A stretch of 63,391 bases of DNA from an uncultured Cytophagaceae bacterium. GTDB lineage: Bacteria; Bacteroidota; Bacteroidia; Cytophagales; Microscillaceae. This document shows positions 783-63,391 of the stretch, one piece after another; position 1 is the first letter of the stretch, and each line of letters opens with the position of its first letter. Both the position numbers and the translations under genes were made by a program. The notes under the pieces were generated by a model, which did no database searches, was not told the origin of the DNA, and saw only the letters and a program-made list of their open reading frames with translations. The stretch spans positions 213,327 to 276,717 of the forward strand of contig CAZKBP010000003.1 in assembly GCA_964551015.1 (NCBI GenBank), given 5' to 3'.

Positions 783-1066
783 AAACGCCTAATTACTCAT
801 CCGAGTGGAATGATCGCCTTAACCAACAGATGCATCAATAACTGATTTGTAAAGAGAACAAAGCTTCCCCCGCCTCGGAGTTTAGTATTCTGAGAGATTT
901 ATTACCATAAGCTTAGGATTTTTTAAAACTCAAAACGCTTCATTTCAGTAAATAGGGTTGAAAGGTAGCTTTCCGCAATGATAGCAAGAGCACCTGGTCT
1001 CACTAACGCTTACATGTTAGCAAGACGCTCAAATGGATAAAAGATAACTCACAACCCATAACTCAC

Positions 1067-2428
1067 ATGGCAGATTCAGACAAGAACCTACGTGCTTACT
1101 TTGACAAAATTTTAGAAATCCAAAAGCAACAACAAAGCCGTGAGCTAAGTGAAGCAGAGCTCAAAGAAATCGCGCTGGAGATGGGGCTTTCTGAAGGTGA
1201 TTGGCAAGCGGTAGAAAAAACTTTTCAGGATTACTACCAAAGAGGAGAAGGCTTTCTCAAGCATAAAAATTGGGAAGACGCCATTGCCGAGTTGAAACAA
1301 GCCTTGACCCTCAAACCCAGCCACGTGGCTACGCAATATCAAATCGCCCAAGCTTACGAAGGACTTTGGAAAGAACAAAAAAAACAGGAATACAAAGAAC
1401 TGGCTATTCAGCACGCACGCCAGTGTTTACAGCTCAAAGCCGACCACAGCGGTGCCCTCAAACTCATCAGTGATCTCAAAAGAAACCCGATCAAGCTTGC
1501 CTCTCCAAGCTCCGCAAATACACGAAAAATCTGGCTACCCGCCGTGGTTGGCCTAAGCTTGCTCTTCGTGGCAGTAACACTAGTACTATTCTTGAGCCCA
1601 AGGTCCTCTTCTAGCACGGTGCAAGTTGAAGTTAAAAAATCTGCCCCTATTGATCCAGATGACAACAGCCCTGCGGTCGATTACACGGAAACGGAAGAGA
1701 CAGGCATGGATACTAACCTGAATGCGATCGCACTTCCAGTTACGCTCGTGAATGACGATAAGTCCAAGGGGCTTGCCTATCAACCCCAGACTAGCATTTA
1801 CACGAAGTATGACAAGAGCTACAACTGTAAGGTGCTTGGCACTATCCGAGTGGATGGCTACGAGATTGACAAACTCAAGATGAAGGTAGAGTTTTTGGAT
1901 GCCACGCAAAAACCTATTTTTACCGATTATGTGGATGTGATTAATAATTATTCAGCTGCCGCACGCAATGGAGATCTCATTCCATTCAACTATTCCGATT
2001 ACAAGGACACCGGAAGCTTTCCTGACTTTCGTTCTATCCGGTTATCAGTGTCTTTGATAGAAAGAGAAGAAATGACCGCTGCCTATCAAGCCTCTCCCAG
2101 TAAAACCTTAGTCTGGCCTAACGCAAAACCCGCGAATATGGACTTGGAGCTTAGAGAAAGATTGAGCAGCCGCAATGGTAAATACCAGAAACTAGAACTC
2201 GCCTTCAAAAATACAGGAACACGCTCTATCAAACACTTACAGGTAGAATTGCAGTGGTTTGCACCGAATGGCGAGATGATCAAATCGGCCAAATTGTTTG
2301 TCTGTACCGATTCTAATCCTAAAATCAAGCCCGGTCAAACGAGAGTCAAACAGGGAACTTGGGACATTTCTGATAAGAAAGGACAACTAGCCACCAGCTA
2401 TCAGGTATCGGTGATGCGCTTGGAGTAA
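1067..2428 (+). CDS. Hypothetical membrane protein with an N-terminal cytoplasmic TPR-like helical region, one TM helix and a ~280-aa extracytoplasmic domain
   Basis: ATG at 1067 starts a 453-aa ORF. The N-terminus (AIAELKQALTLKPSHVATQYQIAQAYEGL) is TPR-like. A hydrophobic segment IWLPAVVGLSLLFVAVTLVLFL follows, and the C-terminal domain has no family I can name. Confidence 0.55.
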   Translation: MADSDKNLRAYFDKILEIQKQQQSRELSEAELKEIALEMGLSEGDWQAVEKTFQDYYQRGEGFLKHKNWEDAIAELKQALTLKPSHVATQYQIAQAYEGLWKEQKKQEYKELAIQHARQCLQLKADHSGALKLISDLKRNPIKLASPSSANTRKIWLPAVVGLSLLFVAVTLVLFLSPRSSSSTVQVEVKKSAPIDPDDNSPAVDYTETEETGMDTNLNAIALPVTLVNDDKSKGLAYQPQTSIYTKYDKSYNCKVLGTIRVDGYEIDKLKMKVEFLDATQKPIFTDYVDVINNYSAAARNGDLIPFNYSDYKDTGSFPDFRSIRLSVSLIEREEMTAAYQASPSKTLVWPNAKPANMDLELRERLSSRNGKYQKLELAFKNTGTRSIKHLQVELQWFAPNGEMIKSAKLFVCTDSNPKIKPGQTRVKQGTWDISDKKGQLATSYQVSVMRLE

Positions 2429-2572
2429 TGGGTTATGGGTTGTGAGTACGCACCAACGCAAGGAAGTTTTGTGAGAAATTCTAACCGTGCGTACCCAACT
2501 ATGAAAAATTGCAAAACATCAGGAGTAAAGCACTAGGCAAAGAAAAAATAACTCACAACTCACAACCCAAAA
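2429..2572. repeat. Structured palindromic element: outer inverted arms GGGTTGTGAGT / ACTCACAACCC (2437-2447 and 2557-2567) enclosing an inner 8-bp hairpin GTACGCAC / GTGCGTAC (2446-2453 and 2487-2494)
   Basis: Read directly from the sequence. The 16-mer ACTCACAACCCATAAC at 1047-1062 is present as an exact reverse complement at 2431-2446. Related copies lie at 25261-25338 and next to the sensor-kinase start (22486-22497). Confidence 0.55.
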
Positions 2573-2576
2573 CTAC

Positions 2577-3104
2577 TTAGGAGGCAGGTTCTACTTTGAA
2601 GCTTAATTGTAGATTCTCCCACATGTAATCTACTTTTTCTTTATCCACTTCAAAGGTCATTCTTTCTGTGAATTCTTCGGATTCCGTGGGCTTTACTTTT
2701 ACTCTCAACACGTCTTTACTTTCATCGTAATCATAGGCTCCCCACTGTTTGGAATCTGTGTTGAAAATGATTGTCCATTCATCTTCATTAGGAATCGTGA
2801 ACAAACCGTAGGTGCCCGCGGGTAGTTTTTGGCCTTCAATCATCACATCTTCGCTCACCTCGAAGGTAGTTGCTTCGTTGGCTCCAGTGCGCCACACATC
2901 ACCGTAAGGAACCAAGGCTCCCCAGATTTCGCGGTCTTTGACGCCGGGTTGGCTGTAGTTGATGACCACTTCGGCAGAGCCAATTTTACCTTTGGCTTCG
3001 GCAGGAGGGCTAGGACGCTTAGATTTGTCCTCTTGTGCACAAGCTGTAGAAAAAATACAACAAACACTAAAAACAAATAAATAAACACGAAAAGTAGTTT
3101 GCAT
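2577..3104 (-). CDS. DUF2911 family lipoprotein/secreted protein
   Basis: It has a signal peptide (MQTTFRVYLFVFSVCCIFSTACAQ). The body shows the conserved pattern GSAEVVINYSQPGVKDREIWGALVPYGDVWRTGANEATTFE...GTYGLFTIPNEDEWTIIFN typical of Bacteroidota DUF2911 proteins. Confidence 0.75.
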   Translation of the reverse strand: MQTTFRVYLFVFSVCCIFSTACAQEDKSKRPSPPAEAKGKIGSAEVVINYSQPGVKDREIWGALVPYGDVWRTGANEATTFEVSEDVMIEGQKLPAGTYGLFTIPNEDEWTIIFNTDSKQWGAYDYDESKDVLRVKVKPTESEEFTERMTFEVDKEKVDYMWENLQLSFKVEPAS

Positions 3105-18026: not shown

Positions 18027-18062
18027 CTATTTTGTTTTTGAATTTTGAGTTTTGAGTTTTTT

Positions 18063-18887
18063 TTAGCTGTAGTCCCAAGCGGGGGCAAAGTCAGGGTCAA
18101 CCATTTTTTTGTTGGCTCGGTTGAGCTCAAAAATCTGGTTCATTTCCTCCGCAGAAAGTTCAAAGTCAAAAATTTGAAAATTTTCTTCCGCGTATTTTTC
18201 CGTGCCAGTTTTAGGGATCACCACCACATCTTCTTGTTGTAAGAGCCAACGGAGCGATACCTGTGCTGCGGTTTTATGGTGTTTGTCTGCGATTTCTTTG
18301 ATGCATTGATCATCTGTGACTTCTCCACGAGCCAGCGGGCTGTAGGCGGTTAAAGATATTCCGTGCTGACGCACATTTTTTAATACTTCACTTTGATTTA
18401 AGAAAGGATGATATTCTACCTGATTCGTAATGATTTCGGCTCCGTAGTCAATCACTTCATCCACCATTTTGGGCAGAAAATTGCTGACCCCGATAGATTT
18501 GGTGTAGCCTTTCTCCTTGGCTTTCATCAACTCTTCCACGCTTTCTTGCATAGGAATGTTAGGATTTGGCCAGTGGATGAGAAGCAAATCTACATAACCT
18601 AGTCCTAGTTTTTCTAGACTTTTTTCTGTCGAGGGGAGAAAGTTTTTTTTAGAAAGTTTCTCGAACCAGACTTTGGTGGTCACGAATAAGTTTTCTCGGC
18701 TCCCCGGGAGTTGCCTTAATCCTTGACCTACTTCTGCCTCGTTTCCGTAGATTTGAGCCGTATCGATGTGTCGGTAGCCGATTTCTAGGGCTTTCTCCAC
18801 CATTTTTTGGGCTTCCTGACCTTTGAGTTGCCAAGTACCAAAACCCAAGGCGGGGATTGTAGCCTTTTTAACATGTACATATCGCAT
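18063..18887 (-). CDS. Aldo/keto reductase (2,5-diketo-D-gluconate reductase-like)
   Basis: The sequence GFGTWQLKGQEAQKMVEKALEIGYRHIDTAQIYGNE includes the catalytic Tyr region, followed by LLIHWP and IGVSNF. Length is 274 aa. Confidence 0.85.
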   Translation of the reverse strand: MRYVHVKKATIPALGFGTWQLKGQEAQKMVEKALEIGYRHIDTAQIYGNEAEVGQGLRQLPGSRENLFVTTKVWFEKLSKKNFLPSTEKSLEKLGLGYVDLLLIHWPNPNIPMQESVEELMKAKEKGYTKSIGVSNFLPKMVDEVIDYGAEIITNQVEYHPFLNQSEVLKNVRQHGISLTAYSPLARGEVTDDQCIKEIADKHHKTAAQVSLRWLLQQEDVVVIPKTGTEKYAEENFQIFDFELSAEEMNQIFELNRANKKMVDPDFAPAWDYS

Positions 18888-19042: not shown

Positions 19043-22000
19043 TTAATCCGTAATCACGGCATTCGGCTGTTTGATAGGCAGGGTGATGATAAACTCTGTA
19101 CCCACGCCTGCTTCACTCTCCACCTCGATTTTCCCCTGATGTTTCTCGATGATGCTATGCACGATAGAAAGCCCCAGGCCTGTGCCTTCACCTACTTCTT
19201 TGGTGGTGAAAAAGGGTTCAAAAACACGCTTTCTAATTTCCTCGGGCATGCCCTTACCGGTATCGCGGATACGAATGAGGACAGAAGAGAGAGGGGCTTG
19301 ATCTGCTGACTCCTGATTGCTAGTTCCTGCCTGCTCAGTTTTAATAAAAATCTTTCCTTCTCCTTCAATGGCTTGAATGGCATTGGAAATGATGTTCATA
19401 AATACCTGATTAAGCTTACCCGGGTAGCACTCGATAGAAGGGATATGGCCATATTCTTTGACAATTTCCACACGGTTTTTGTACTGGTTGCGGAGAATGG
19501 ATAGGGTTGCGTCTAAATTCTCGTGCATATCCGCCATTTTGATATCGTCTTCATCTAGGCGGGAGAAGGTACGCAAGCCTTTAACAATCTCGGCGGTGCG
19601 CTCGGCTCCACGCTTGATACTTTCGGTCAGTTCGTTGACTTCTTCCAAGACTTCCTCGAATTCCATGTCTTCCTTCAATTCCATAATTTCCTTTAACTTT
19701 TCTTCTACATTTTGGGCGTCTACCTCTTCGTAATTCTCGAGCACTTCTATCAAATCTTGGATATTGGTTTTGAGCGAGCCAATGCCTGCGTAGACAAAGT
19801 TGATTGGATTATTGATCTCGTGGGCAATACCCGCGGTGAGTTGCCCGAGCGAAGCCATTTTATCGGCTTCTAGAAGTTGGGTCTGAGTGCTCTTGAGGTT
19901 ATCCAAGGTGGCTTGGATTTCTTCTTTTTGCTGATGAATTTGCGCCGTTTGCCGCTGTACCTCTTCTTCTAGTTCTTTTTTTCTTCTTTGGATTTGATTG
20001 ATACGATAGCGAGAAATCATATAAATGATGCCGACAAAAGCGATGATACATAGCGTCCAAAACCACCAAGTGAGCCAAAAAGGCGGTAAAATTTGGATGA
20101 CCAAGACCCTTCGCCCTGCTTTGCTCCAATCGGAGTTTTTGTTAATTGCTTCTACTTCAAAGACATAGGTAGCTGGATATAAATTCGTGTAAGTCACTAA
20201 GCGTTGGGTAGTGGTATAATTCCATTTGCCATCCTGAAAACCCAAGAGTCGATAGCGGTAGCGGGTTTTTTCGGGGTGTTTGTAATTGAGAGCCACAAAT
20301 TCAATAGAAAAAATAGACTGATGGTAATCCAAAGTGATCGTATCTGTCAGGGTGATATGCTTGGAGAGTACCGCGGATTCTTCTGTACTAATTTTTACGG
20401 ATTCATTAAAGATTTGAAAATCAGTCAGTACGACCGAAGGTGCCTCGATCTCCTTGAGGGCATTGACTCGAGCGGGATCAAAGTTGGTAAAGCCATTAAT
20501 GCCCCCAAAGAGCATATGGCCGGTTTTGCTTTTGAGGTAAGCACCCCCGTTGAATTCATTACTTTGCAAGCCATCAAATACATCATAATTGGCGATCACG
20601 GAATCTTGATCCAGACTTAATTGGAAAAGTCCTTTGTTGGTACTGATCCAAAGATAGCCACTCTCATCTTCTAAGATACCATAGGCGACATCATTGAACA
20701 GGCCATCGTCTTGGTCGTAGCGGGTAAATGTTTCCTGCTCGCGATCAAATTGGTTCAAACCGCCTCCGTAGGTTCCAACCCACAATTGTTTTCGGCTATC
20801 CTCGAAGACAGCCATGATGATGTCATTGCTGAGGCTGTTGGATTTTCGCTCATCGTATTGATAGCTATAGAATTTTTCTGTCTTGTAATCAAAGCGATTG
20901 AGTCCGCCGCCACGAGTGCCTACCCAGAGATTACCTTCACTGTCTTCGGCCAGGGCATAGATCGTGTTATGGCTGAGGCTAAGAGAATCTTTGGCATCGT
21001 GGAGAAAATGCCTAAAAGTATCGGTATCACGGTCTAAAAGACTCAGCCCCCCGCCCTTGGTGCCGATCCAGAGCTTGTTTTGAGAATCTTCATAAATGAC
21101 ACGGACGTTGGGATGTAGGAGTGCCTTCTTTGCCTGAGCATCTATTTGATTGTGAACAGGATAGGCTTTGAAATTCTGCCCACCCAGATATTTGAGTAAG
21201 CCTTGATTGAGCATACCCACCCAAATATTTCCCTGACGGTCGCGGTAGATTGTTTGCACGTCATTGTTAGGCAAATTAGAATTTTCTTTTCGGAAACCCG
21301 ACAGAATACGGTCTTGATTTACATCATAAATATCAATTCCGCCATTGTAAGTGGCTACCCAGAACTGATTGCTATCGGCGGGGCAAAACCCCTTGATGTT
21401 ATTGCTGGACAGCGAAGAGTTGTCTTGGGAAAAGTGGTGAAACATTCTTTGGGAAGGGTCATACTTGTTCACACCACCAATATAAGTGCCGATCCAGACC
21501 TGCCCTTGGTGGTCTGGATAAATATCAAAAATCAGGTTAGCATTCAGGCTTCCAGTTTTCTGTAAATCTTTCTGGTGATGAGACCAGTTGCCCGCTTGAT
21601 CTTTGACAAATAATCCCTGATTGCTCCCGACCCAAAGATTTTGTTCCTGATCCAATGCCAAGGTAAATATTCCCAATGAAGCAGTAGCATCTAAAGGTAG
21701 CTCTACTTTTTGTACCCGCTCTTGCTCAGAAACTTGCATCAGACCGTCCGTGGTGCCCACCCAAAGGTTTTGTTTTTGATCTCCCAGTAGGCTTAAGATC
21801 ACAGGGTAAGGTTCGGACTCGGAGAGAGGAAAAGCTTGAAAACGGGCGTGGCTAGCGTTCCACCGGAAGAGTCCCTGCTCGGTACCTGCCCAAATTTGAC
21901 CACCTGCATCTTCGGTGATTTCCTGTATTTGGGCAAGGCGAATGGTACGGAAAGTAATAGAGTCTAGGTTCTCATGCAACTTGGCCACGTAAGTTTGCTC

Positions 22001-22477
22001 GGGCGTGCTAATCCACAAGTACTCATTTTGATAGATGTAAAGATTTGAAATGTTTTTTTGGTGCAGGGATTGCGAGCTTGCCGGAGTCTCGGGAGTATAC
22101 TGAAACTGGTGTACAAAGGTTTGCTTTTCTGGGATAAAGATATTGAGTCCCTGGTCGGTTCCCACCCAGATTCTCCCCCAGCGATCCTCCACGAGCGTAC
22201 GCATATTATTAGCACTAATCGTATTGGTATCTTCGGGTGATTTTTTGTAAATCTTGAATTGGTAACCATCGTAGCGATTTAGGCCATCTTGGGTGCCAAA
22301 CCAGAGAAAGCCTAGGCGATCTTGCAAGATACAATAGACATGGCTCTGAGAAAGCCCTTCTTTGAGGGTAATGTGGTCAAACTCTAAGTTTATTCTCTGG
22401 GCAAAGAGAAGGGGAGGAGCCATCCCAAGGAAAATGATTAGTAAAAAAGACAAATAAACAAAAGAGCCTCTTTTCAT
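19043..22477 (-). CDS. Sensor histidine kinase with periplasmic two-component-regulator beta-propeller repeats and Y_Y_Y domain. No receiver or DNA-binding domain
   Basis: After a signal peptide come about 14 repeats of the (Q/R)G(N/Q)(L/I)W(V/I)GT type, a Y_Y_Y region ([15 protein letters not shown]) and a TM helix ([18 protein letters not shown]). A coiled coil, HisKA ([12 protein letters not shown]) and HATPase_c ([16 protein letters not shown]) follow, and the protein ends after the ATPase. Confidence 0.85.
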
Positions 22478-22689
22478 GGACTTTTGGGTTATGAGTTGTT
22501 GGTTTCCTTTCTAGGGCTTTCTTGACAATGGTTTCCAGCCCTAGCCGATTTGATACAACTGATTTTTGTGGATTCTGAATCTTGATTACTTACGTAAAGT
22601 TTGGCAAAAATCACCCCAATTTACGGAAAAAGAAAACATATTCGTAATGACTGCAAACGCTTTTCAGACGGTGTTGATGCGCTCGTGCA

Positions 22690-22860
22690 TGGCGTGAGAA
22701 ACTTTTTGTATGGTGTTAATGGATTCATCAGTGAGCTTAAAAACTTTTTAGATGGTGCTAATGGATTCATCAGCGGGCTTAAAAACTTTTTAGATGGCGT
22801 TGAAAGCTTTTTGTATGGTGCTAATGGATTCATCAGTGAGCTTAAAAAATCTTTTATCGA
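22690..22860. repeat. About four tandem copies of a 42-bp unit (AATGGATTCATCAGTGAGCTTAAAAACTTTTTAGATGGTGCT-like). It lies in overlapping ORFs on both strands (TTG-start 22601..23002 on +, ATG-start 22621..22833 on -)
   Basis: Seen directly. The + translation repeats FL(Y/D)G(V/A)NGFISELKN. The - translation repeats LMNPLAP(Y/S)KKFL(S/T)P. Which strand, if either, is coding is undetermined. Confidence 0.6.
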
Positions 22861-23086
22861 TAAAAACCTACTGCTAATCAGGGTTAAGCGAAAGTTCGAG
22901 TGTGTTTTTAAGCACTTATCTAAGTCAAGCCTAAATCTTCTAGAGGTGTTCTTAGCGATGTTTTCGCGGGGTGTAGGAAGAAAATTAGATGATTTTGGGT
23001 GAAACTGACTTTTGTCATTTTAATCCCAAGGCATCTCGGCTACCTTCGTACAAGATTAAACTTCTAACTCCTCAAAAACGATATTT

Positions 23087-25255
23087 ATGGAAGGGAAAGT
23101 ATTAACACGAGATACCCAACAAAAATCCTTAGACCTGCAGATTGAGAAGTTTAGCTACGATAACACAGTGGTCAAACTTTTCATCATCGCTACGGTGATC
23201 TTTGGAATCGTCGGCATGTCAGTCGGTTTGCTGATGGCCATTCAAATGTTCTATCCTGCTGCTAATTTTGGTATTCCTTATACTACTTTTGGCCGAATCA
23301 GACCTTTACACACCAACGCGGTCATTTTTGCCTTCGTTGGAAATGCTATGTTTGCCGGAGTCTATTACTCCTTGCAACGATTACTCAAAGCCAGAATGTA
23401 CAGCGATGCGCTGAGCCGTTTTCATTTCTGGGGCTGGCAAGCCATTATCTTGGCGGCGGCTATTACATTGCCCCTAGGATATACCACGAGCCACGAGTAC
23501 GCCGAATTAGAGTGGCCGATTGATATTGCCATTACTTTGGTATGGGTGGCCTTCGGGATCAACATGATCGGAACCATCCTCAAGCGTCGTGAAAGACACA
23601 TGTACGTGGCTATTTGGTTTTACATCGCGACTTTTATTACCGTGGCGATTCTACACGTATTCAACTCCATCCAGTTACCCATTGGTTGGTTCAAAAGCTA
23701 CTATGTATTTGCTGGGGTGCAAGATGCCTTGGTACAATGGTGGTACGGACACAACGCAGTGGCTTTCTTCCTGACCACACCTTTCTTGGGGCTGATGTAT
23801 TATTATCTGCCTAAGGCGGCCAATCGTCCGGTTTATTCCTATAAGCTTTCGATTATCCACTTCTGGTCCTTGATCTTTATCTATATCTGGGCAGGGCCTC
23901 ACCACTTATTATATACTTCACTGCCAGACTGGGCACAAAGCTTGGGTACGGTCTTTTCTATTATGTTGATTGCCCCTTCTTGGGGAGGAATGCTCAACGG
24001 TTTGTTGACGCTCAGAGGAGCTTGGGATAGAGTAAGAGAAGATCCGGTTTTGAAATTCTTGGTGGTAGCGGTTACGGCTTACGGTATGGCTACTTTTGAA
24101 GGGCCGATGCTTTCTTTGAAAAATGTCAACTGGCTATCGCACTATACCGACTGGACCATTGCTCACGTACACGTGGGAGGTTTGGGTTGGAATGGTTTTA
24201 TGATCTTTGGAGTACTTTATTGGTTGGTGCCCAAGCTTTGGGGAACTCAGTTATTCTCTCGCAAACTAGCCAATACACACTTCTGGCTAGGTACTTTGGG
24301 AATCATCTTTTATGCCTTACCGCTTTACATTGCTGGTTTTACCCAGAGTTTGATGTGGAAGCAATTCACGCCTGATGGATTCTTGGTATATAGTAACTTC
24401 CTACAAACGGTTACGCAAATCTTGCCGATGTACATGCTCCGTGCGGTCGGTGGAGCCTTATATTTGACCGGTGCTTTCTTACTAGCTTATAACCTTTGGA
24501 AAACCGCAACTCAGGGTAAATTTATCGCTAACGAAGAAGCACAAGCGCCTGCACTTGCCAAAAAATACGTGGCGAAGCCTAATGAGGGCTGGCACCACAG
24601 ATTGGAAAGAAGAGCCGTTCTTTTCACCGTCTTGACTTTTATTGCCGTGGCGATCGGAGGAATCATTGAGATTGTACCCACGATGATGGTCAAATCCAAC
24701 GTGCCTAGCATCGCTTCGGTACAGCCTTATACTCCATTAGAATTACACGGTAGAGATTTGTATATCCGCGAAGGTTGTGTGGGTTGCCACTCGCAAATGG
24801 TTCGTCCTTTCCGCGATGAAACCGAGCGATACGGTGAATACTCCAAAGCAGGTGAATTCGTGTACGATCACCCATTCCTATGGGGTTCTAAGCGTACTGG
24901 GCCAGACTTGCACCGCGAAGGTGGCCTGAGAAGCGATAGCTGGCACTACTTCCATATGTTGGAGCCAGAGCAAATGTCTCCAGGTTCTATTATGCCACCC
25001 TATCCTTGGTTGCTAGAAAATGATTACCAGACTTCAAGCATTATCCCGAAAGTTACGGCTATGCGTCAGTTGGGTGTGCCTTATCCTGAGGGTTACGAAG
25101 GTGAAGTAGAAGCCGAAGTACAGGCGCAAGCCGAGGCCATTGTGAAACGATTGGCAGAAGAAGCCAAAGTAAAGACTTCTCCTGATAAAGAAATCGTAGC
25201 CCTGATCGCTTACCTACAACGCTTAGGAACCGATATCAAAGTAGTAGAAGAATAA
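23087..25255 (+). CDS. ccoNO: cbb3-type cytochrome c oxidase, fused subunits I and II (CcoN-CcoO)
   Basis: 722 aa. The N-terminal ~470 aa form a 12-TM heme-copper oxidase subunit I with conserved His ligands (WAGPHHLLYT, TIAHVHVGG). The C-terminal part is a monoheme cytochrome c with CVGCHSQMVRPF (CcoO heme-binding CXXCH). This fused form is typical of Bacteroidota. Confidence 0.9.
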   Translation: MEGKVLTRDTQQKSLDLQIEKFSYDNTVVKLFIIATVIFGIVGMSVGLLMAIQMFYPAANFGIPYTTFGRIRPLHTNAVIFAFVGNAMFAGVYYSLQRLLKARMYSDALSRFHFWGWQAIILAAAITLPLGYTTSHEYAELEWPIDIAITLVWVAFGINMIGTILKRRERHMYVAIWFYIATFITVAILHVFNSIQLPIGWFKSYYVFAGVQDALVQWWYGHNAVAFFLTTPFLGLMYYYLPKAANRPVYSYKLSIIHFWSLIFIYIWAGPHHLLYTSLPDWAQSLGTVFSIMLIAPSWGGMLNGLLTLRGAWDRVREDPVLKFLVVAVTAYGMATFEGPMLSLKNVNWLSHYTDWTIAHVHVGGLGWNGFMIFGVLYWLVPKLWGTQLFSRKLANTHFWLGTLGIIFYALPLYIAGFTQSLMWKQFTPDGFLVYSNFLQTVTQILPMYMLRAVGGALYLTGAFLLAYNLWKTATQGKFIANEEAQAPALAKKYVAKPNEGWHHRLERRAVLFTVLTFIAVAIGGIIEIVPTMMVKSNVPSIASVQPYTPLELHGRDLYIREGCVGCHSQMVRPFRDETERYGEYSKAGEFVYDHPFLWGSKRTGPDLHREGGLRSDSWHYFHMLEPEQMSPGSIMPPYPWLLENDYQTSSIIPKVTAMRQLGVPYPEGYEGEVEAEVQAQAEAIVKRLAEEAKVKTSPDKEIVALIAYLQRLGTDIKVVEE

Positions 25256-25260
25256 AAACA

Positions 25261-25338
25261 GTTGTCCGGTTGTGGCTTGCTAGTTATGAGGGTAATAAAA
25301 CCCTCCAACGCGCAACTCACAACCGACAACCCGCAACT
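25261..25338. repeat. Palindromic element between ccoNO and ccoQ: outer arms GTTGTCCGGTTGTG / CACAACCGACAAC with an inner hairpin GAGGG-N8-CCCTC. The right arm continues into GCAACTCACAACC
   Basis: Seen directly. It has the same nested architecture and the same ACTCACAACC core as the element at 2429-2572. It ends 10 nt before the ccoQ ATG. Confidence 0.5.
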
Positions 25339-25348
25339 AAATAAAGCC

Positions 25349-53024: not shown

Positions 53025-53130
53025 GTTGATTTTGAGTTTCAAAGATTAATTGATCGCGAAATAGCTTTCCTTTACCAAATAGATAATACTTTTTTTTTGA
53101 ACACAGAGACACAGAGGCCTTACGAGGCTT

Positions 53131-53290
53131 ATTCAAACACAGAGACACGGAGACACAGAGGCCTTACTAGGCTTATTCAAACACAGAGACAAATAAAGAC
53201 ACAGAGACAAATAAAGACAAGAGACACAGAGACACAGAGACACAGAGACAAATAGAGACATAAAGATAAAGAGACACACAGATACAGCGC
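53131..53290. repeat. Compound microsatellite built on (CACAGAGA)n. It holds two ~44-bp copies of ACACAGAGACAC..AGAGGCCTTAC(G/T)AGGCTTATTCAA followed by degenerate GAGACA/ATAAAGACA repeats
   Basis: Seen directly in the divergent intergenic region between moeB (-) and the GH2 gene (+). The track ORFs 52974..53255 (+) and 53173..53385 (-) are translation artefacts of this repeat (...TETQRHRDK... and ...CLCVSVSLCL...). Confidence 0.8.
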
Positions 53291-53547
53291 AAACCGCCAA
53301 GACTGGCCTTTACGTGCACGCTACACTTCTTAGCTCCTGCCTCTAGGGTAGGAAGGATCGCTTTTCTTTCTATCTCTACCAACACAGTTGACAGGATTTT
53401 TTATTTATTTTGCTTCCAAATTTTCGTAGAATGAATCATGCCCTCCGATCCTCTCATCGTGTGCTTTCTGATCAAAAAGCGAGAGGATACAGGAGCTAAA
53501 TTATTAAAACAGAAACCCATAACAGACAACTACTTAGCATTTAGCCC

Positions 53548-61777: not shown

Positions 61778-63154
61778 GTGAAACGATTTTTTTATCTATC
61801 CGCTTATCTTTTTTTAATCTTATCCAGTCTTTCCTCTGCCGCCCAAGAAGTTAGCCCAGATTACTCTCTGGCGGGCTTCTGGCGGGGAGCCATTATCCGC
61901 ACGGGCAACTCCATCCAAGTGATGGAAGCCGAAATCTACCCGCAAGGTGACTCTATGGTGATTGCCATCATGATTCCCGAATGGACTTTCCGCCCGGCGC
62001 AGGTTCGAAAATTAGAAGTGGAACAAAACGTGGTGCGCTTTGATGCCATCTACGGGCAAGCACGAATGATCTTGGATTCTTCCTTTATGGAAATGGTGGG
62101 CACGGTTGGCTCGGCTTACCCACCCATCAATTTTCACTTGAAAAAGAGCCTCCGGCCTTACCGCCCTCAGATAGAGGAGCAGGCACTCGTCGTCAATCGG
62201 GCTGGAGCCAAGCTCGGTGGTACGCTCTTCCTGCCTTCCCGCTTACAAGAGCCAGCTGCTTGTGCGATTCTGGTGCACGGACGAGGCTGCGGTCCCCGGC
62301 AATATCTGGCCGCCCGCGCTCGCAAGCTCGCCGAATACGGCATTGCTACCTACGCCTACGACAAGCGGGGCAGTGCGCCCACGGGCTTTGACTGCGTGCA
62401 ATCCAACCACGAGATGGTCGTTCAGGATTTGGTGGCCGTGATCCAGATGCTTGCTGAGCAGACAGAGATCGACCCCGAGCGCATTGGCTTGCTTAGCTAC
62501 AGTGCTGGTGCTTGGATCGTGCCCGATGCCGCCCGGCGGAGTAAAGTTCCGGTGGCTTTTATGGCGACGGTGGTAGGGCCGCCCACGAGTGTGCGCGAGC
62601 AGCAGTTTGATGGCGTGGAAGCTTTTGCCCTCGTGGATAATTATTCGGAGGCGGCACTGCAAGAAGCCCTGGAGTACACAGAGTTGACTTTTTCAGAAGA
62701 AGACCCGCAGCAGATTTATCCGCGGATGCAAGAACTCTTGGTACTAGCCGAGCAAAATGGTTGGCGCGATTGGCTGGCCGATACCGACATTCCGCCCTCG
62801 GCAGAGAAAATCCCCGAACTGTGGGTTCGACGCTTTGCTTACGATCCAGGAGAGGATTTGAAGCAATTCCAAGGCCCTTTTCTCTCTATTCTAAGTGAAG
62901 ATGATCCAGTAGTGCCTTATCAGAAACAAGTGCAGCGATTTCAGGAATTGTTCGGAGCCGCGGGAAAAGAAAATTACAGCATCAAAATCCTGCAATCGGC
63001 TGGGCACGGACGCGGACACGGGGCAAGAGTTCGAGACCTGGGCTATAATGAAACCTTAGAAAGCACTTCTTATTACTATAAGTATTATCGCCCTGCTTAC
63101 GGTTCCATCCAGTACATCGTGGACTTTCTGGAAGAAAATGGTTTTTTGGATTAG
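61778..63154 (+). CDS. Secreted alpha/beta hydrolase (dienelactone hydrolase/S9-like)
   Basis: GTG start with a signal peptide (MKRFFYLSAYLFLILSSLSSAAQ), the HG region ILVHGRGCGPRQY and the nucleophile elbow LSYSAGAW. Confidence 0.7.
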   Translation: MKRFFYLSAYLFLILSSLSSAAQEVSPDYSLAGFWRGAIIRTGNSIQVMEAEIYPQGDSMVIAIMIPEWTFRPAQVRKLEVEQNVVRFDAIYGQARMILDSSFMEMVGTVGSAYPPINFHLKKSLRPYRPQIEEQALVVNRAGAKLGGTLFLPSRLQEPAACAILVHGRGCGPRQYLAARARKLAEYGIATYAYDKRGSAPTGFDCVQSNHEMVVQDLVAVIQMLAEQTEIDPERIGLLSYSAGAWIVPDAARRSKVPVAFMATVVGPPTSVREQQFDGVEAFALVDNYSEAALQEALEYTELTFSEEDPQQIYPRMQELLVLAEQNGWRDWLADTDIPPSAEKIPELWVRRFAYDPGEDLKQFQGPFLSILSEDDPVVPYQKQVQRFQELFGAAGKENYSIKILQSAGHGRGHGARVRDLGYNETLESTSYYYKYYRPAYGSIQYIVDFLEENGFLD

Positions 63155-63246: not shown

Positions 63247-63391
63247 TTGGGAAACTTCGCGGAGTTGGAGAAGTCTCAAGTTGTAAGATCGTTCTACGAC
63301 GATGGTTTGAGAAGTCTCCAGCGGTAAGATCGTTCTACGACGCTCGTTGGAGAAGTCTCAAGAGGAAAGATCTTTCAACGACGATCGTTGG
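63247..63391. repeat. At least 3 copies of a degenerate 40-42-bp tandem repeat (TTGGAGAAGTCTCAAG-nnnn-AAGATCGTTCTACGACG-nnnn), truncated by the window end
   Basis: Seen directly: units at 63265-63306, 63307-63346 and 63347-63387, with the next unit starting at 63388. Both the conserved blocks and the 'variable' blocks are short, and the whole unit repeats. Confidence 0.7.

What the first reader, a model, noticed from the sequence alone, without database searches (positions are those of the whole stretch)
1044..2572. Recurring ACTCACAACC(C) motif family: sits directly on start/stop codons and forms nested palindromes
The 16-mer ACTCACAACCCATAAC occurs at 1047-1062, running straight into the ATG of the TPR/TM gene at 1067. 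It occurs as an exact inverted copy at 2431-2446, immediately after that gene's stop. At 2429-2572 the motif forms outer inverted arms (GGGTTGTGAGT...ACTCACAACCC) around an inner hairpin (GTACGCAC-N33-GTGCGTAC). The same nested design recurs at 25261-25338, between the ccoNO stop and the ccoQ ATG, with core GCAACTCACAACCGACAACC. Related sequences abut the sensor-kinase ATG (rc of 22486-22497: CAACTCATAACC) and the GH2 ATG (53517-53538, sharing AACTACTTAG with 2571-2580). This looks like a family of short structured cis elements tied to translation starts or transcript ends, or a miniature palindromic repeat (REP/MITE-like), rather than chance.
Basis: seen in the sequence. Interest (0 to 1): 0.55.

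Follow-up and report, generated by a model that had tools for sequence, protein, structure and literature searches.

The report
Heptamer repeat arrays at gene boundaries
The ACTCACAACC motif is real and is not due to chance: it is a 7-base tandem repeat (AACYCAN)n belonging to a known but poorly understood class of bacterial intergenic heptamer repeats, placed next to start and stop codons and sometimes paired into hairpins, and it is not a conserved regulatory RNA or a classical mobile element.

Summary
ACTCACAACC occurs 4 times against 0.07 expected, and the 16-mer occurs once on each strand (the inverted copy is at 2432-2447). The motif is a 7-nt tandem repeat with units AACTCAC, AACCCAT, AACCCAA and AACCGAC.

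A profile scan finds six strong arrays and one weak array in the window. All are intergenic. In each, the 3' end of the A/C-rich strand lies within -1 to +13 nt of a start or stop codon.

Two inverted pairs fold into long hairpins (2428-2577 and 25261-25330). The nearest relatives (Microscillaceae, ccoNO 82-85% identical) have no such arrays in 64 kb, and their ccoNO-ccoQ spacers are shorter.

The same repeat occurs in at least 119 genome loci, mostly Bacteroidota but spanning many phyla. There, inverted pairs are always G/T arm first (27 of 27), and arrays sometimes encode protein linkers.

This matches the described heptamer simple-repeat class: cyanobacterial STRR, TAACTGA repeats, and Xanthomonas GGGAATC repeats. 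It does not match REP elements, MITEs, riboswitch-like RNAs or intrinsic terminators.

Verdict: a new member of a known kind. Its function is unproven; the likely effects are a G-free leader and hairpins at the 3' ends of genes or between genes of an operon.

The parts
1046..1066 (+). Array AACTCAC AACCCAT AACTCAC. It contains no G and ends at the base before the ATG (1067) of the weak-TPR gene 1067..2428.
   Evidence: profile score 33.4 bits; gap to the start codon 0 nt; weak TPR Pfam hits.
2428..2448 (-). Array read on the minus strand as (T)ACTCAC AACCCAT AACCCAT. On the plus-strand mRNA it is the G/U-rich 5' arm, GGGUUAUGGGUUGUGAGU. It overlaps the TAA stop (2426-2428) of the TPR gene by 1 nt.
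   Evidence: 25.4 bits; gap -1 nt.
2446..2494 (.). Inner inverted repeat: GTACGCAC (2446-2453), 33 nt, GTGCGTAC (2487-2494). It lies inside the loop of the outer hairpin and is not repeated elsewhere in the window.
   Evidence: sequence. It is not chosen in the minimum-energy fold. No other copy was found.
2550..2577 (+). Array AACTCAC AACTCAC AACCCAA AACTACT. It is the A/C-rich 3' arm of the outer hairpin. Its last base overlaps the stop codon (2577-2579, minus strand) of the DUF2911 gene 2577..3104.
   Evidence: TRF period 7, 3.6 copies; 33.2 bits; pairs with 2430-2447 in the fold; gap -1 nt; DUF2911 hit E = 1.6e-55.
18038..18058 (-). Array AACTCAA AACTCAA AATTCAA, new relative to the finding. 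It lies in the 37-nt spacer between the aldo/keto reductase stop (18063-18065) and the ATG (18025) of an NAD(P)H-binding protein gene.
   Evidence: TRF period 7; period-7 self-match scan; 23.1 bits; sequence; Pfam hits.
22478..22504 (-). Array AACCAAC AACTCAT AACCCAA AAGTCC, running into the ATG (22477) of the propeller-type sensor histidine kinase gene 19043..22477.
   Evidence: 27.7 bits; gap 0 nt; Pfam Reg_prop, HisKA and HATPase_c.
25261..25280 (+). Degenerate G/T-rich 5' arm GTTGTCCGGTTGTGGCTTGC, beginning 5 nt after the ccoNO stop (25253-25255).
   Evidence: As an array it is weak: best 8.4 bits on the complementary strand.
25288..25305 (+). Inner hairpin at the tip of the long stem: GAGGGT, 6 nt, ACCCTC.
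25307..25341 (+). Array AACGCGC AACTCAC AACCGAC AACCCGC AACTAAA. Bases up to 25330 form the 3' arm of the hairpin 25261-25330. The array ends 7 nt before the ccoQ ATG (25349).
   Evidence: 20-26 bits; fold -35.8 kcal/mol, z = -8.3; the ccoQ start is fixed by alignment with relatives, MFKHYFEGIQ....
53514..53534 (+). Weak, decayed array AACCCAT AACAGAC AACTACT, 13 nt before the ATG (53548) of the GH2 gene. It shares AACTACTTAG with 2571-2580.
   Evidence: repeat family D8; 13.5 bits, just under the 14-bit cut-off; gap 13 nt.

Best explanation
**What it is.** The motif is the visible part of a heterogeneous heptanucleotide simple-sequence repeat, (AAC-Y-C-A-N)n, with GTT-type units on the other strand. 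It belongs to the class of bacterial intergenic heptamer repeats that includes cyanobacterial STRR, TAACTGA repeats, and GGGAATC/GGGGATT repeats.

**How it arises (inferred).** Arrays arise and change length at the DNA level in 7-nt steps, by replication slippage. They persist only where they do no harm: in spacers, and in flexible protein linkers.

**The polarity (shown).** The 3' end of the A/C-rich strand points at, and usually touches, the neighbouring start or stop codon. Inverted pairs are therefore always 5'-G/T arm ... A/C arm-3'.

**What it does in the transcript (inferred).**
- A lone A/C array in front of an ATG gives a G-free leader that cannot fold. That suits the G-poor initiation regions of this Bacteroidota genome, which lack Shine-Dalgarno sequences.
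- A G/U arm just after a stop codon, together with a downstream A/C arm, forms a long hairpin. Examples are 2428-2577 between convergent genes and 25261-25330 between ccoNO and ccoQ. Such a hairpin would act as a barrier at the 3' end of a gene or between genes of an operon, stabilising the upstream mRNA or helping end it. It would also partly mask the leader of the next gene.

**How specific it is.** Any effect comes from base composition and generic complementarity, not from a specific conserved fold.
For: **Shown in the window**
- The repeat has period 7.
- A profile scan gives 13 hits at 6 sites, against 0.13 expected.
- All arrays are intergenic, P about 2e-6. All 7 have the 3' end of the A/C strand within -1 to +13 nt of a start or stop codon.
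- The pairs form hairpins.
- Leaders in this window are 8.7% G, and 0 of 43 carry a Shine-Dalgarno-like core. This agrees with Bacteroidetes initiation being tuned by mRNA structure (PMC6847099).

**Shown in relatives**
- Four relatives with 82-85% identical ccoNO have no array in 64 kb.
- Their ccoNO-ccoQ spacers are 27-56 nt, against 93 nt here. Two of them carry unrelated hairpins at that spot.

**Shown in other genomes**
- At least 119 loci carry the 17-mer, and 103 arrays have 4 or more units.
- An ATG lies within 40 nt downstream on the A/C strand in 27 cases, against 7 in the opposite orientation. The stop codon of a gene on the opposite strand lies next to the A/C 3' end in 35 cases; a same-strand stop lies upstream in 14.
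- All 27 inverted pairs are G/T arm first, and they fold into long stems.
- Divergent spacers are depleted: 6 of 110 arrays, although about 17% of spacers are divergent.
- Arrays have no conserved flanks and the loops of pairs share no sequence.
- Arrays at orthologous sites differ in unit number. They can also be translated, as a linker in an E2 acyltransferase and as an N-terminal extension of PurD.

**Published parallels**
- TAACTGA arrays lie just upstream of start codons, including in Bacteroidetes, and differ between strains by indels of 7 nt (PMC4679880).
- Xanthomonas GGGAATC arrays occur in always-convergent pairs and lie close to the ORF on the 5' side of the G-rich strand. Only 7-8% are in divergent spacers (PMC4692102).
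Against: - No copy-number difference was seen for this organism. Three Logan contigs from the samples SRR6462993 and SRR6462995 are identical to the window. Slippage is therefore inferred from the class and from other genomes.
- No expression, 3'-end or translation data exist, so every RNA-level effect is inference.
- Gene boundaries in the 119 loci come from a crude ORF caller.
Some non-Bacteroidota hits may be mis-binned MAG contigs.
- Depletion in divergent spacers argues that being a leader is not the main reason the arrays exist.
- The strict G/T-first order of pairs has no proven cause.
Confidence: 0.62

Rival explanations
1. A REP/REPIN-like or MITE-like non-autonomous mobile element. 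The inverted pair would be the mobile unit, moved by a transposase encoded elsewhere in the genome, and lone arrays would be decayed halves.
For: Pairs have one fixed arm order (27 of 27), as REP doublets do. The arrays sit after stop codons in spacers. They are absent from the nearest relatives, and the ccoNO-ccoQ spacer is longer here, which looks like an insertion.
Against: - Loops between arms share no sequence.
- No conserved terminal bases or target duplication.
- Arm length and unit order vary freely, and arms match arms from other genomes as well as their own partner.
- The same unit family occurs across many phyla, unlike species-specific REPs.
- A single arm is G-free and is not itself a palindrome.
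- Arrays also occur in frame inside genes.
Confidence: 0.1
2. A dedicated post-transcriptional control element. The A/C heptamers would be repeated binding sites for a single-strand RNA-binding protein such as ribosomal protein S1, a cold-shock protein or a similar factor, setting the translation rate of the gene downstream. This was proposed for TAACTGA repeats.
For: Five of seven window arrays end 0-13 nt before an ATG on the sense strand. Across genomes the sense-to-antisense ratio is 27 to 7. MacGregor proposed this model for TAACTGA repeats (PMC4679880). This genome's leaders lack Shine-Dalgarno sequences and are G-poor.
Against: - Downstream genes have no common function: TPR protein, NAD-binding protein, kinase, ccoQ, GH2.
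- About as many arrays abut stop codons with the G/T strand in the mRNA (35 cases).
- Divergent spacers, which hold two leaders, are depleted.
- Orthologous genes in close relatives have no arrays.
- Arrays are also found as coding linkers.
Confidence: 0.15
3. A compositional by-product. A/C-rich, G-poor leaders are the rule in Bacteroidota, so similar strings in front of start codons would arise without any repeat family.
For: Leaders in this window are 44% A, 21% C and 9% G. Several other leaders look vaguely similar. The 53514 site is only borderline.
Against: - Shuffles that keep local composition give 0.13 hits against 13 observed.
- The 16-mer is exact on both strands.
- The period is strictly 7.
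- Copies occur after stop codons in the G/T orientation.
- The same units recur in long arrays in other phyla.
Confidence: 0.03
4. G-quadruplex-forming repeats, or intrinsic (Rho-independent) transcription terminators.
For: GGGTTNT units on the G/T strand could give quadruplexes in long arrays such as L040 and L088. Related GGGAATC repeats form quadruplexes in vitro (PMC4692102). The hairpins lie at gene ends.
Against: - The window has no (G3 N1-7)x4 motif on either strand.
- About half of the units are GTGAGTT, which has no G run.
- No terminator-like hairpin followed by a T run was found at 2429-2576.
- The stems are long, A/U- and G/U-rich, and are not followed by U tracts.
Confidence: 0.1

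Closest known systems
GGGAATC (Xanthomonas) and GGGGA(T/C)T (Nostoc) heptameric repeats, Rehm et al. 2015 (PMC4692102)
   Same: - Heterogeneous 7-nt tandem arrays of 2 to more than 20 units, mostly intergenic.
- Frequent inverted pairs, always with the G-rich strands convergent.
- The G-rich strand starts close to the ORF on its 5' side.
- About equal numbers on either strand between co-oriented genes, about 16% between convergent genes and only 7-8% between divergent genes. Here the figures are 80%, 14.5% and 5.5%.
- Length differs between related species.
   Different: - The unit sequence differs: AACYCAN / NTGRGTT against GATTCCC / GGGAATC.
- About half of the units here have no G3 run, so quadruplex formation is not a general property, and the window has none.
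- This unit family is spread over many phyla instead of one genus.
- In this Bacteroidota genome, which lacks Shine-Dalgarno sequences, the arrays often run right into the ATG.
TAACTGA direct repeats of marine Beggiatoaceae, cyanobacteria and some Bacteroidetes, MacGregor 2015 (PMC4679880)
   Same: - Heptamer arrays, mostly intergenic, in forward orientation within a few nucleotides of a start codon.
- No common function among the downstream genes.
- Patchy distribution across taxa.
- Strain differences in 7-nt steps.
- Mixed with other heptamers in Bacteroidetes. AACTGAT-type units occur inside some arrays found here, in L032, L068 and L116.
   Different: - The dominant unit differs.
- In the Cand. 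'Maribeggiatoa' genome, 169 sets are direct repeats and only one is inverted. Here inverted pairs are common (27 pairs), and many arrays abut stop codons.
STRR (short tandemly repeated repetitive) heptamers of heterocystous cyanobacteria. Known from general knowledge and cited in PMC4692102 as three tandem heptanucleotides in Calothrix PCC 7601.
   Same: Dispersed, intergenic, tandem 7-nt units that occur many times in a genome.
   Different: The units differ (CCCCAGT, TTGGTCA, CAACAGT), and so does the host phylum. No STRR sequence was compared directly here.
REP / BIME / REPIN elements of proteobacteria
   Same: Extragenic, often just after stop codons. Inverted doublets form long hairpins. 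Thought to stabilise upstream mRNA (general knowledge).
   Different: REPs are near-identical, species-specific imperfect palindromes of 20-40 nt, tied to a RAYT transposase. Here one arm is G-free and not a palindrome, the copies are variable-length arrays of 7-mers, and the same units occur across phyla.

Membership tests
Intergenic heptanucleotide simple-sequence repeats (STRR / TAACTGA / GGGAATC class) | Head-to-tail tandem units with a 7-nt period | tested here: met
   TRF reports period 7 at 2550-2574 and 18036-18060. (AACNNNN)x3+AAC gives 3 hits against 0.02 expected. The self-match scan finds hits at period 7, 2 against 0.1 expected from shuffles (the only other period with hits, 8, is the separate 8-mer repeat).
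Intergenic heptanucleotide simple-sequence repeats (STRR / TAACTGA / GGGAATC class) | Heterogeneous units with a few fixed positions, and a variable number of units per site | tested here: met
   Positions 1-3 (AAC), 5 (C) and 6 (A) are nearly fixed, while positions 4 and 7 vary. Arrays have 3-5 units in the window and 3-21 units in other genomes.
Intergenic heptanucleotide simple-sequence repeats (STRR / TAACTGA / GGGAATC class) | Strong preference for intergenic DNA, few in divergent spacers, and inverted pairs with convergent G-rich strands | tested here: met
   All six strong window arrays are intergenic. Elsewhere, 88 arrays lie between co-oriented genes, 16 between convergent genes and 6 between divergent genes. 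All 27 pairs are G/T arm first. This matches PMC4692102.
Intergenic heptanucleotide simple-sequence repeats (STRR / TAACTGA / GGGAATC class) | Length change in 7-nt steps between related genomes | tested here: inconclusive
   Orthologous arrays differ in unit number between two Flavobacterium species (L048 and L086) and between Moheibacter and a Weeksellaceae genome (L016 and L057). For the window's own organism, only identical contigs were available.
REP / REPIN | Each repeat is itself an imperfect palindrome, and copies within one genome are near-identical | tested here: not met
   Single arrays contain no G and cannot self-pair. The copies differ in length and in unit order.
REP / REPIN | An associated RAYT (Y1 transposase) gene in the genome | not tested
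   Only 63 kb of the genome is available, and the window's ORFs were not all screened for transposases.
MITE | Terminal inverted repeats around a conserved core, with target-site duplications | tested here: not met
   Loops between arms are unrelated. There are no conserved flanking bases and no duplications. No second copy of the 2449-2549 core exists in the window.
Conserved structured cis-regulatory RNA (Rfam-type) | A match to a described family, or conservation with compensatory changes at orthologous sites | tested here: not met
   No Rfam hit even at E up to 1. Relatives lack the element. A pair's own arms are no more complementary than arms from different pairs: median longest exact run 11 against 10, p = 0.09.
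Intrinsic terminator | A short G+C-rich stem-loop followed by a T run | tested here: not met
   The consensus scan finds none in 2429-2576. The stems are 15-20 bp, G/U- and A/U-rich, with no U tract after them.
G-quadruplex-forming repeats | At least four G3 tracts separated by loops of 1-7 nt | tested here: not met
   No such motif exists anywhere in the window on either strand.

The most novel reading that the evidence does not exclude
AACYCAN/GTT arrays could be one element type found across many bacterial phyla and built by a directional DNA-level process. One possibility is that G/T-rich 3' ends fold back and prime copying of themselves. Another is that repeats are added to the 3' ends of a break, followed by head-to-head joining. 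Either would explain why every inverted pair, in Bacteroidota, Gemmatimonadota, Acidobacteriota, candidate-phyla-radiation bacteria and (for GGGAATC) Xanthomonas, has the G-rich arm first, and why the C-rich 3' end always faces the gene.

Alternatively, the arrays could be read by a conserved single-strand-binding protein that tunes translation in lineages lacking Shine-Dalgarno sequences.

Either reading would turn a long-standing curiosity, dating from the STRR reports cited above, into a defined mechanism.
Probability: 0.15. Interest if true: 0.7.

Novelty: new member of a known kind. Interest (0 to 1): 0.38.

Why it matters
Heptamer repeats are reported to be the most common long simple repeats in many bacterial genomes (Mrazek 2007, as cited in PMC4679880), yet no function or mechanism of origin has been established.

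This window adds a unit family, AACYCAN, for which I found no description in the searchable literature. The family has two properties that make the question testable:
- It is spread over many phyla, with most loci from Bacteroidota.
- It obeys a simple polarity rule: the 3' end of the C-rich strand touches the neighbouring start or stop codon, and pairs always have the G-rich arm first.

In Bacteroidota, whose leaders must be G-poor and unstructured, orientation-swap experiments on such arrays could show whether the rule reflects selection on mRNA or the way the arrays are made.

There are two practical consequences:
- Genome annotation: these arrays caused wrong ORF starts. The list of ORFs gives TTG 18130 where the real start is ATG 18025, and TTG 25262 where the real start is ATG 25349.
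- Motif discovery: these arrays can be mistaken for regulatory RNAs.

Tried and rejected
- **Rfam.** Searched at gathering thresholds over the whole window, and at E up to 1 over both hairpin regions. Nothing was found except one tRNA.
- **Terminator and promoter scan of 900-2800.** Nothing at the element.
- **Orthologues of the TPR gene.** The best relative is 38% identical, so no orthologous spacer could be compared.
- **Source genome.** The TPR and ccoNO proteins are listed on an NCBI contig of 276,717 bp. Only short Logan contigs, identical to the window, could be fetched, so there was no genome-wide count and no polymorphism data.
- **Viral contigs.** Seven loci, representing five different sequences. 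Most are isolated matches or short arrays, with no enrichment.
- **Literature search.** All 14 rotations of AACTCAC and its complement were searched, and no relevant paper was found.
- **Arm-to-arm copying.** I tested whether a pair's two arms are specifically matched, which would indicate a recent inverted duplication or compensatory evolution. They are not significantly better matched than arms from different pairs.
- **Conserved element ends or a terminal cap.** AACTACTTAG is shared by two window sites, but no consensus appears across 103 arrays.
- **G-quadruplex reading.** No motif in the window.
- **Metagenome scan.** Not used, because the window's proteins are not recorded from JGI sources.
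Full report
**1.

ACTCACAACC occurs four times in the window, at 1047+, 2438-, 2558+ and 25315+. The expectation is 0.07, and none of 100 dinucleotide-preserving shuffles reached four. Three further copies have 1-2 mismatches, against 0.00 expected.

- the plus-strand copy runs into the ATG at 1067;
- the inverted copy starts one base after the TAA at 2426-2428;
- the outer arms are at 2437-2447 and 2558-2568;
- the inner pair is GTACGCAC, 33 nt, GTGCGTAC;
- the second nested design lies between the ccoNO stop and the next ATG.

**2. What the motif really is**

It is a tandem repeat with a 7-nt period. The arrays read as follows:
- 1046-1066: AACTCAC AACCCAT AACTCAC
- 2550-2577: AACTCAC AACTCAC AACCCAA AACTACT
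- 25307-25341: AACGCGC AACTCAC AACCGAC AACCCGC AACTAAA
- 22504-22478 (minus strand): AACCAAC AACTCAT AACCCAA AAGTCC

Tandem Repeats Finder reports period 7 at 2550-2574. (AACNNNN)x3+AAC occurs three times against 0.02 expected. A self-match scan finds hits at period 7 (2 regions against 0.1 expected from shuffles); the only other period with hits is 8, which is the separate 8-mer repeat near 53200.

I built a position-weight profile of the unit (AAC, Y, C, A, N) and scored it over three consecutive units. It gives 13 hits at six sites, against 0.13 expected from locally shuffled sequence. The six sites are 1046(+), 2448(-), 2550(+), 18058(-), 22504(-) and 25307(+). The site at 53514 scores 13.5 bits, just below the cut-off.

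The array at 18038-18058(-) reads AACTCAA AACTCAA AATTCAA. It fills the short spacer between an aldo/keto reductase gene and an NAD(P)H-binding protein gene whose true start is ATG 18025.

**3. Position and polarity in the window**

Only 11% of the window is non-coding, yet all six strong arrays are intergenic (P about 2e-6). All seven arrays have the 3' end of their A/C-rich strand within -1 to +13 nt of a gene boundary. Five of these boundaries are start codons (1067, 18025, 22477, 25349, 53548). Two are stop codons (2428 and 2577).

At the two stop codons, the mRNA of the gene carries the G/U-rich strand immediately after its stop. The genes concerned have nothing in common: a weak-TPR protein, DUF2911, an NAD-binding protein, a propeller-type sensor kinase, ccoQ, and a GH2 glycosidase.

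**4. Structure**

A lone A/C array contains no G, so it cannot fold on itself. Long hairpins are predicted where a G/T array lies upstream of an A/C array:
- 25261-25330 folds at -35.8 kcal/mol with z = -8.3.
- 2430-2568 folds at -38.7 kcal/mol with z = -3.3.

No Rfam family matches, even at E up to 1. No terminator-like hairpin followed by a T run was found. The window contains no G-quadruplex motif.

**5. Close relatives**

The ccoNO protein places the organism near the Microscillaceae (Cytophagales). The best outside hits are 85%, 85%, 83% and 82% identical. I fetched four such loci, about 64 kb of non-redundant sequence. None contains an array scoring 12 bits or more.

Their ccoNO-ccoQ spacers are 27, 30, 54 and 56 nt, against 93 nt in the window. 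The two longer spacers hold perfect hairpins of unrelated sequence, and the two shorter ones hold nothing. A stem-loop at this position therefore recurs, but its sequence is lineage-specific, and the heptamer version is peculiar to this genome.

The TPR gene has no close orthologue; the best is 38% identical. Logan contigs from the samples SRR6462993 and SRR6462995 are identical to the window, so I have no polymorphism data for this organism.

**6. The same repeat in other genomes**

About 139 chance matches would be expected in the whole collection (my estimate from its size). However, 103 of the 124 arrays found extend in phase to four or more AAC-type units, with a median of 5 and a maximum of 21. 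Chance cannot produce that.

Roughly two thirds of the loci come from Bacteroidota: Flavobacterium, Chitinophaga, Saprospiraceae, Pedobacter, Prevotella and others. The rest include Anaerolineae, Gemmatimonadaceae, Acidobacteriota, Poribacteria, Roizmanbacteria (a complete chromosome with four pairs in the two loci fetched), Saccharibacteria, Sericytochromatia and Abditibacteriaceae. Several of these genomes contribute two to four contigs. Some single hits in MAGs may come from mis-binned contigs. Viral contigs gave only seven loci, mostly isolated matches or short arrays.

**7. Rules seen across those genomes**

Gene boundaries here come from a simple ORF caller, so the numbers are approximate.
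- An ATG opening a long frame lies within 40 nt downstream of the A/C strand in 27 arrays, against 7 for the opposite orientation (binomial p about 8e-4).
- The stop codon of a gene on the opposite strand lies next to the A/C 3' end in 35 arrays. A same-strand stop lies upstream in 14 (p about 4e-3). About half of the 35 lie within 5 nt.
- All 27 inverted pairs are 5'-G/T arm ... A/C arm-3', and none has the other order (p about 1.5e-8). They fold into stems of roughly 15-35 bp.
- Arrays lie between co-oriented genes (88), convergent genes (16) and divergent genes (6). Divergent spacers make up about 17% of all spacers. Between co-oriented genes, either strand is equally likely to carry the A/C array (45 against 43).
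- No conserved bases flank the arrays. The loops of pairs share no sequence. A pair's two arms are no more complementary to each other than to arms from other genomes: median longest exact run 11 against 10, p = 0.09.
- Arrays at orthologous sites differ in unit number and type. Some are translated. In two Flavobacterium species the array encodes the linker (...SQPITQNS...) before the catalytic domain of an E2 acyltransferase. In Moheibacter and a Weeksellaceae genome it encodes an N-terminal extension of PurD. Arrays deep inside long open frames are mostly A/C-sense, 15 against 4.

**8. Interpretation**

These properties describe a simple-sequence repeat. They do not describe a discrete mobile element or a specific RNA motif.

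The class is already known. MacGregor (PMC4679880) described TAACTGA heptamer arrays lying a few nucleotides upstream of start codons in Beggiatoaceae, cyanobacteria and five Bacteroidetes. Differences between strains were in 7-nt steps, and S1, cold-shock or CsrA proteins were suggested as readers.

Rehm et al. (PMC4692102) described GGGAATC arrays in Xanthomonas. There are 70-75 inverted pairs per genome, always convergent. The G-rich strand lies 28 nt from the ORF on its 5' side and 160 nt from the next ORF. About 16% are in convergent spacers and 7-8% in divergent spacers. That is the same architecture and polarity found here, with a different unit. Both papers cite Mrazek 2007 for heptamers being the most abundant long simple repeats in many bacteria, and for polymerase slippage as the proposed origin.

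I found no paper naming AACTCAC or any rotation of it.

**9. How it most likely works**

What is shown is the anatomy, the polarity, the lack of conservation in relatives, and the fit to the known class.

What is inferred:
- Arrays expand and contract by slippage.
- They survive only where the transcript or the protein tolerates them.
- In this genome the 25 nt before start codons are 8.7% G, and none of 43 leaders has a Shine-Dalgarno-like core. This fits Bacteroidetes initiation being governed by mRNA structure rather than Shine-Dalgarno pairing (PMC6847099).
- An A/C array is an ideal structure-free leader, whereas the G/T strand would not be. That gives a simple selective reason for the orientation next to start codons.
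- A G/U arm after a stop codon, together with a downstream A/C arm, gives a hairpin. The hairpin could protect or define the 3' end of the upstream message. In the cco operon it could also partly mask the ccoQ leader until a ribosome terminating on ccoNO opens it.

Why pairs are never A/C arm first remains unexplained. Three possibilities are recorded in the notebook: exposure of a C-rich, G-poor Rho loading site; fold-back priming by G/T-rich 3' ends; and repeat addition at 3' ends followed by head-to-head joining.

**10. Verdict**

It is a new member of a known kind. Interest is moderate to low for this window alone. Interest is somewhat higher for the cross-phylum polarity rule, which could be tested experimentally.

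Noticed in passing
window 53101-53290: A second, different simple-repeat system lies in the divergent spacer upstream of the GH2 gene. It has two 44-nt units (ACACAGAGACACAGAGGCCTTACGAGGCTTATTCAAACACAGAG, 95% identical), followed by about 11 copies of an 8-mer (AGACACAG) mixed with ACAAATAA-type units.
   Followed up: no
window 63264-63391: A 41-nt tandem repeat (GTTGGAGAAGTCTCAAGAGGTAAGATCGTTCTACGACGATC, 3.1 copies, 85% matches) in non-coding DNA after the gene 61778..63154. It runs off the end of the window.
   Followed up: no
window 22647-22854: A 42-nt (14-codon) tandem repeat, 2.4-4 copies at 82-91% identity, inside the ORF 22601..23002, which has no Pfam match. It lies just upstream of ccoNO.
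   Followed up: no
window 18025 and 25349: The mechanical ORF list gives starts at TTG 18130 and TTG 25262, both reading through heptamer arrays. The real starts are ATG 18025 (Pfam NAD_binding_10 aligns from residue 7) and ATG 25349 (ccoQ, aligned with relatives as MFKHYFEGIQ).
   Followed up: yes
L121 8046-8101; L124 7644-7697: Relatives carry perfect hairpins of unrelated sequence in the same ccoNO-ccoQ spacer: CCGTCGGGAAGGGTGC...GCACCCTTCCCGAC in L121 and CATGGTGCAAG...CTTGCACCA in L124. Two other relatives have none. A stem-loop at this position in the operon therefore seems to have been gained repeatedly.
   Followed up: partly
L048 2159-2228 and L086 7940-7974; L016 7424-7493 and L057 471-533: The same heptamer arrays are translated in frame in other Bacteroidota. 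In two Flavobacterium species they form the interdomain linker (...SQPITQNSEQTTQNSQPKTHNPQP...) of an E2 acyltransferase. In Moheibacter and a Weeksellaceae genome they form an N-terminal extension (MNSQPITQNTQHTTHNSQHTT-RILIIGSGGREHA) of PurD. Unit numbers differ between the orthologues.
   Followed up: partly
window, 25 nt upstream of 43 ATG starts: Leaders are 44% A and only 8.7% G, against 22.7% G in the window as a whole. None has a GGAG, GAGG or AGGA core at -20 to -4. This is the typical Bacteroidota pattern of initiation without Shine-Dalgarno sequences.
   Followed up: yes
window 927-940 and 953-960: Possible decayed array remnants upstream of the 1046 array: AACTCAAAACGCTT, and GGGTTGAA on the other polarity. 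These were seen by eye only and not scored.
   Followed up: no
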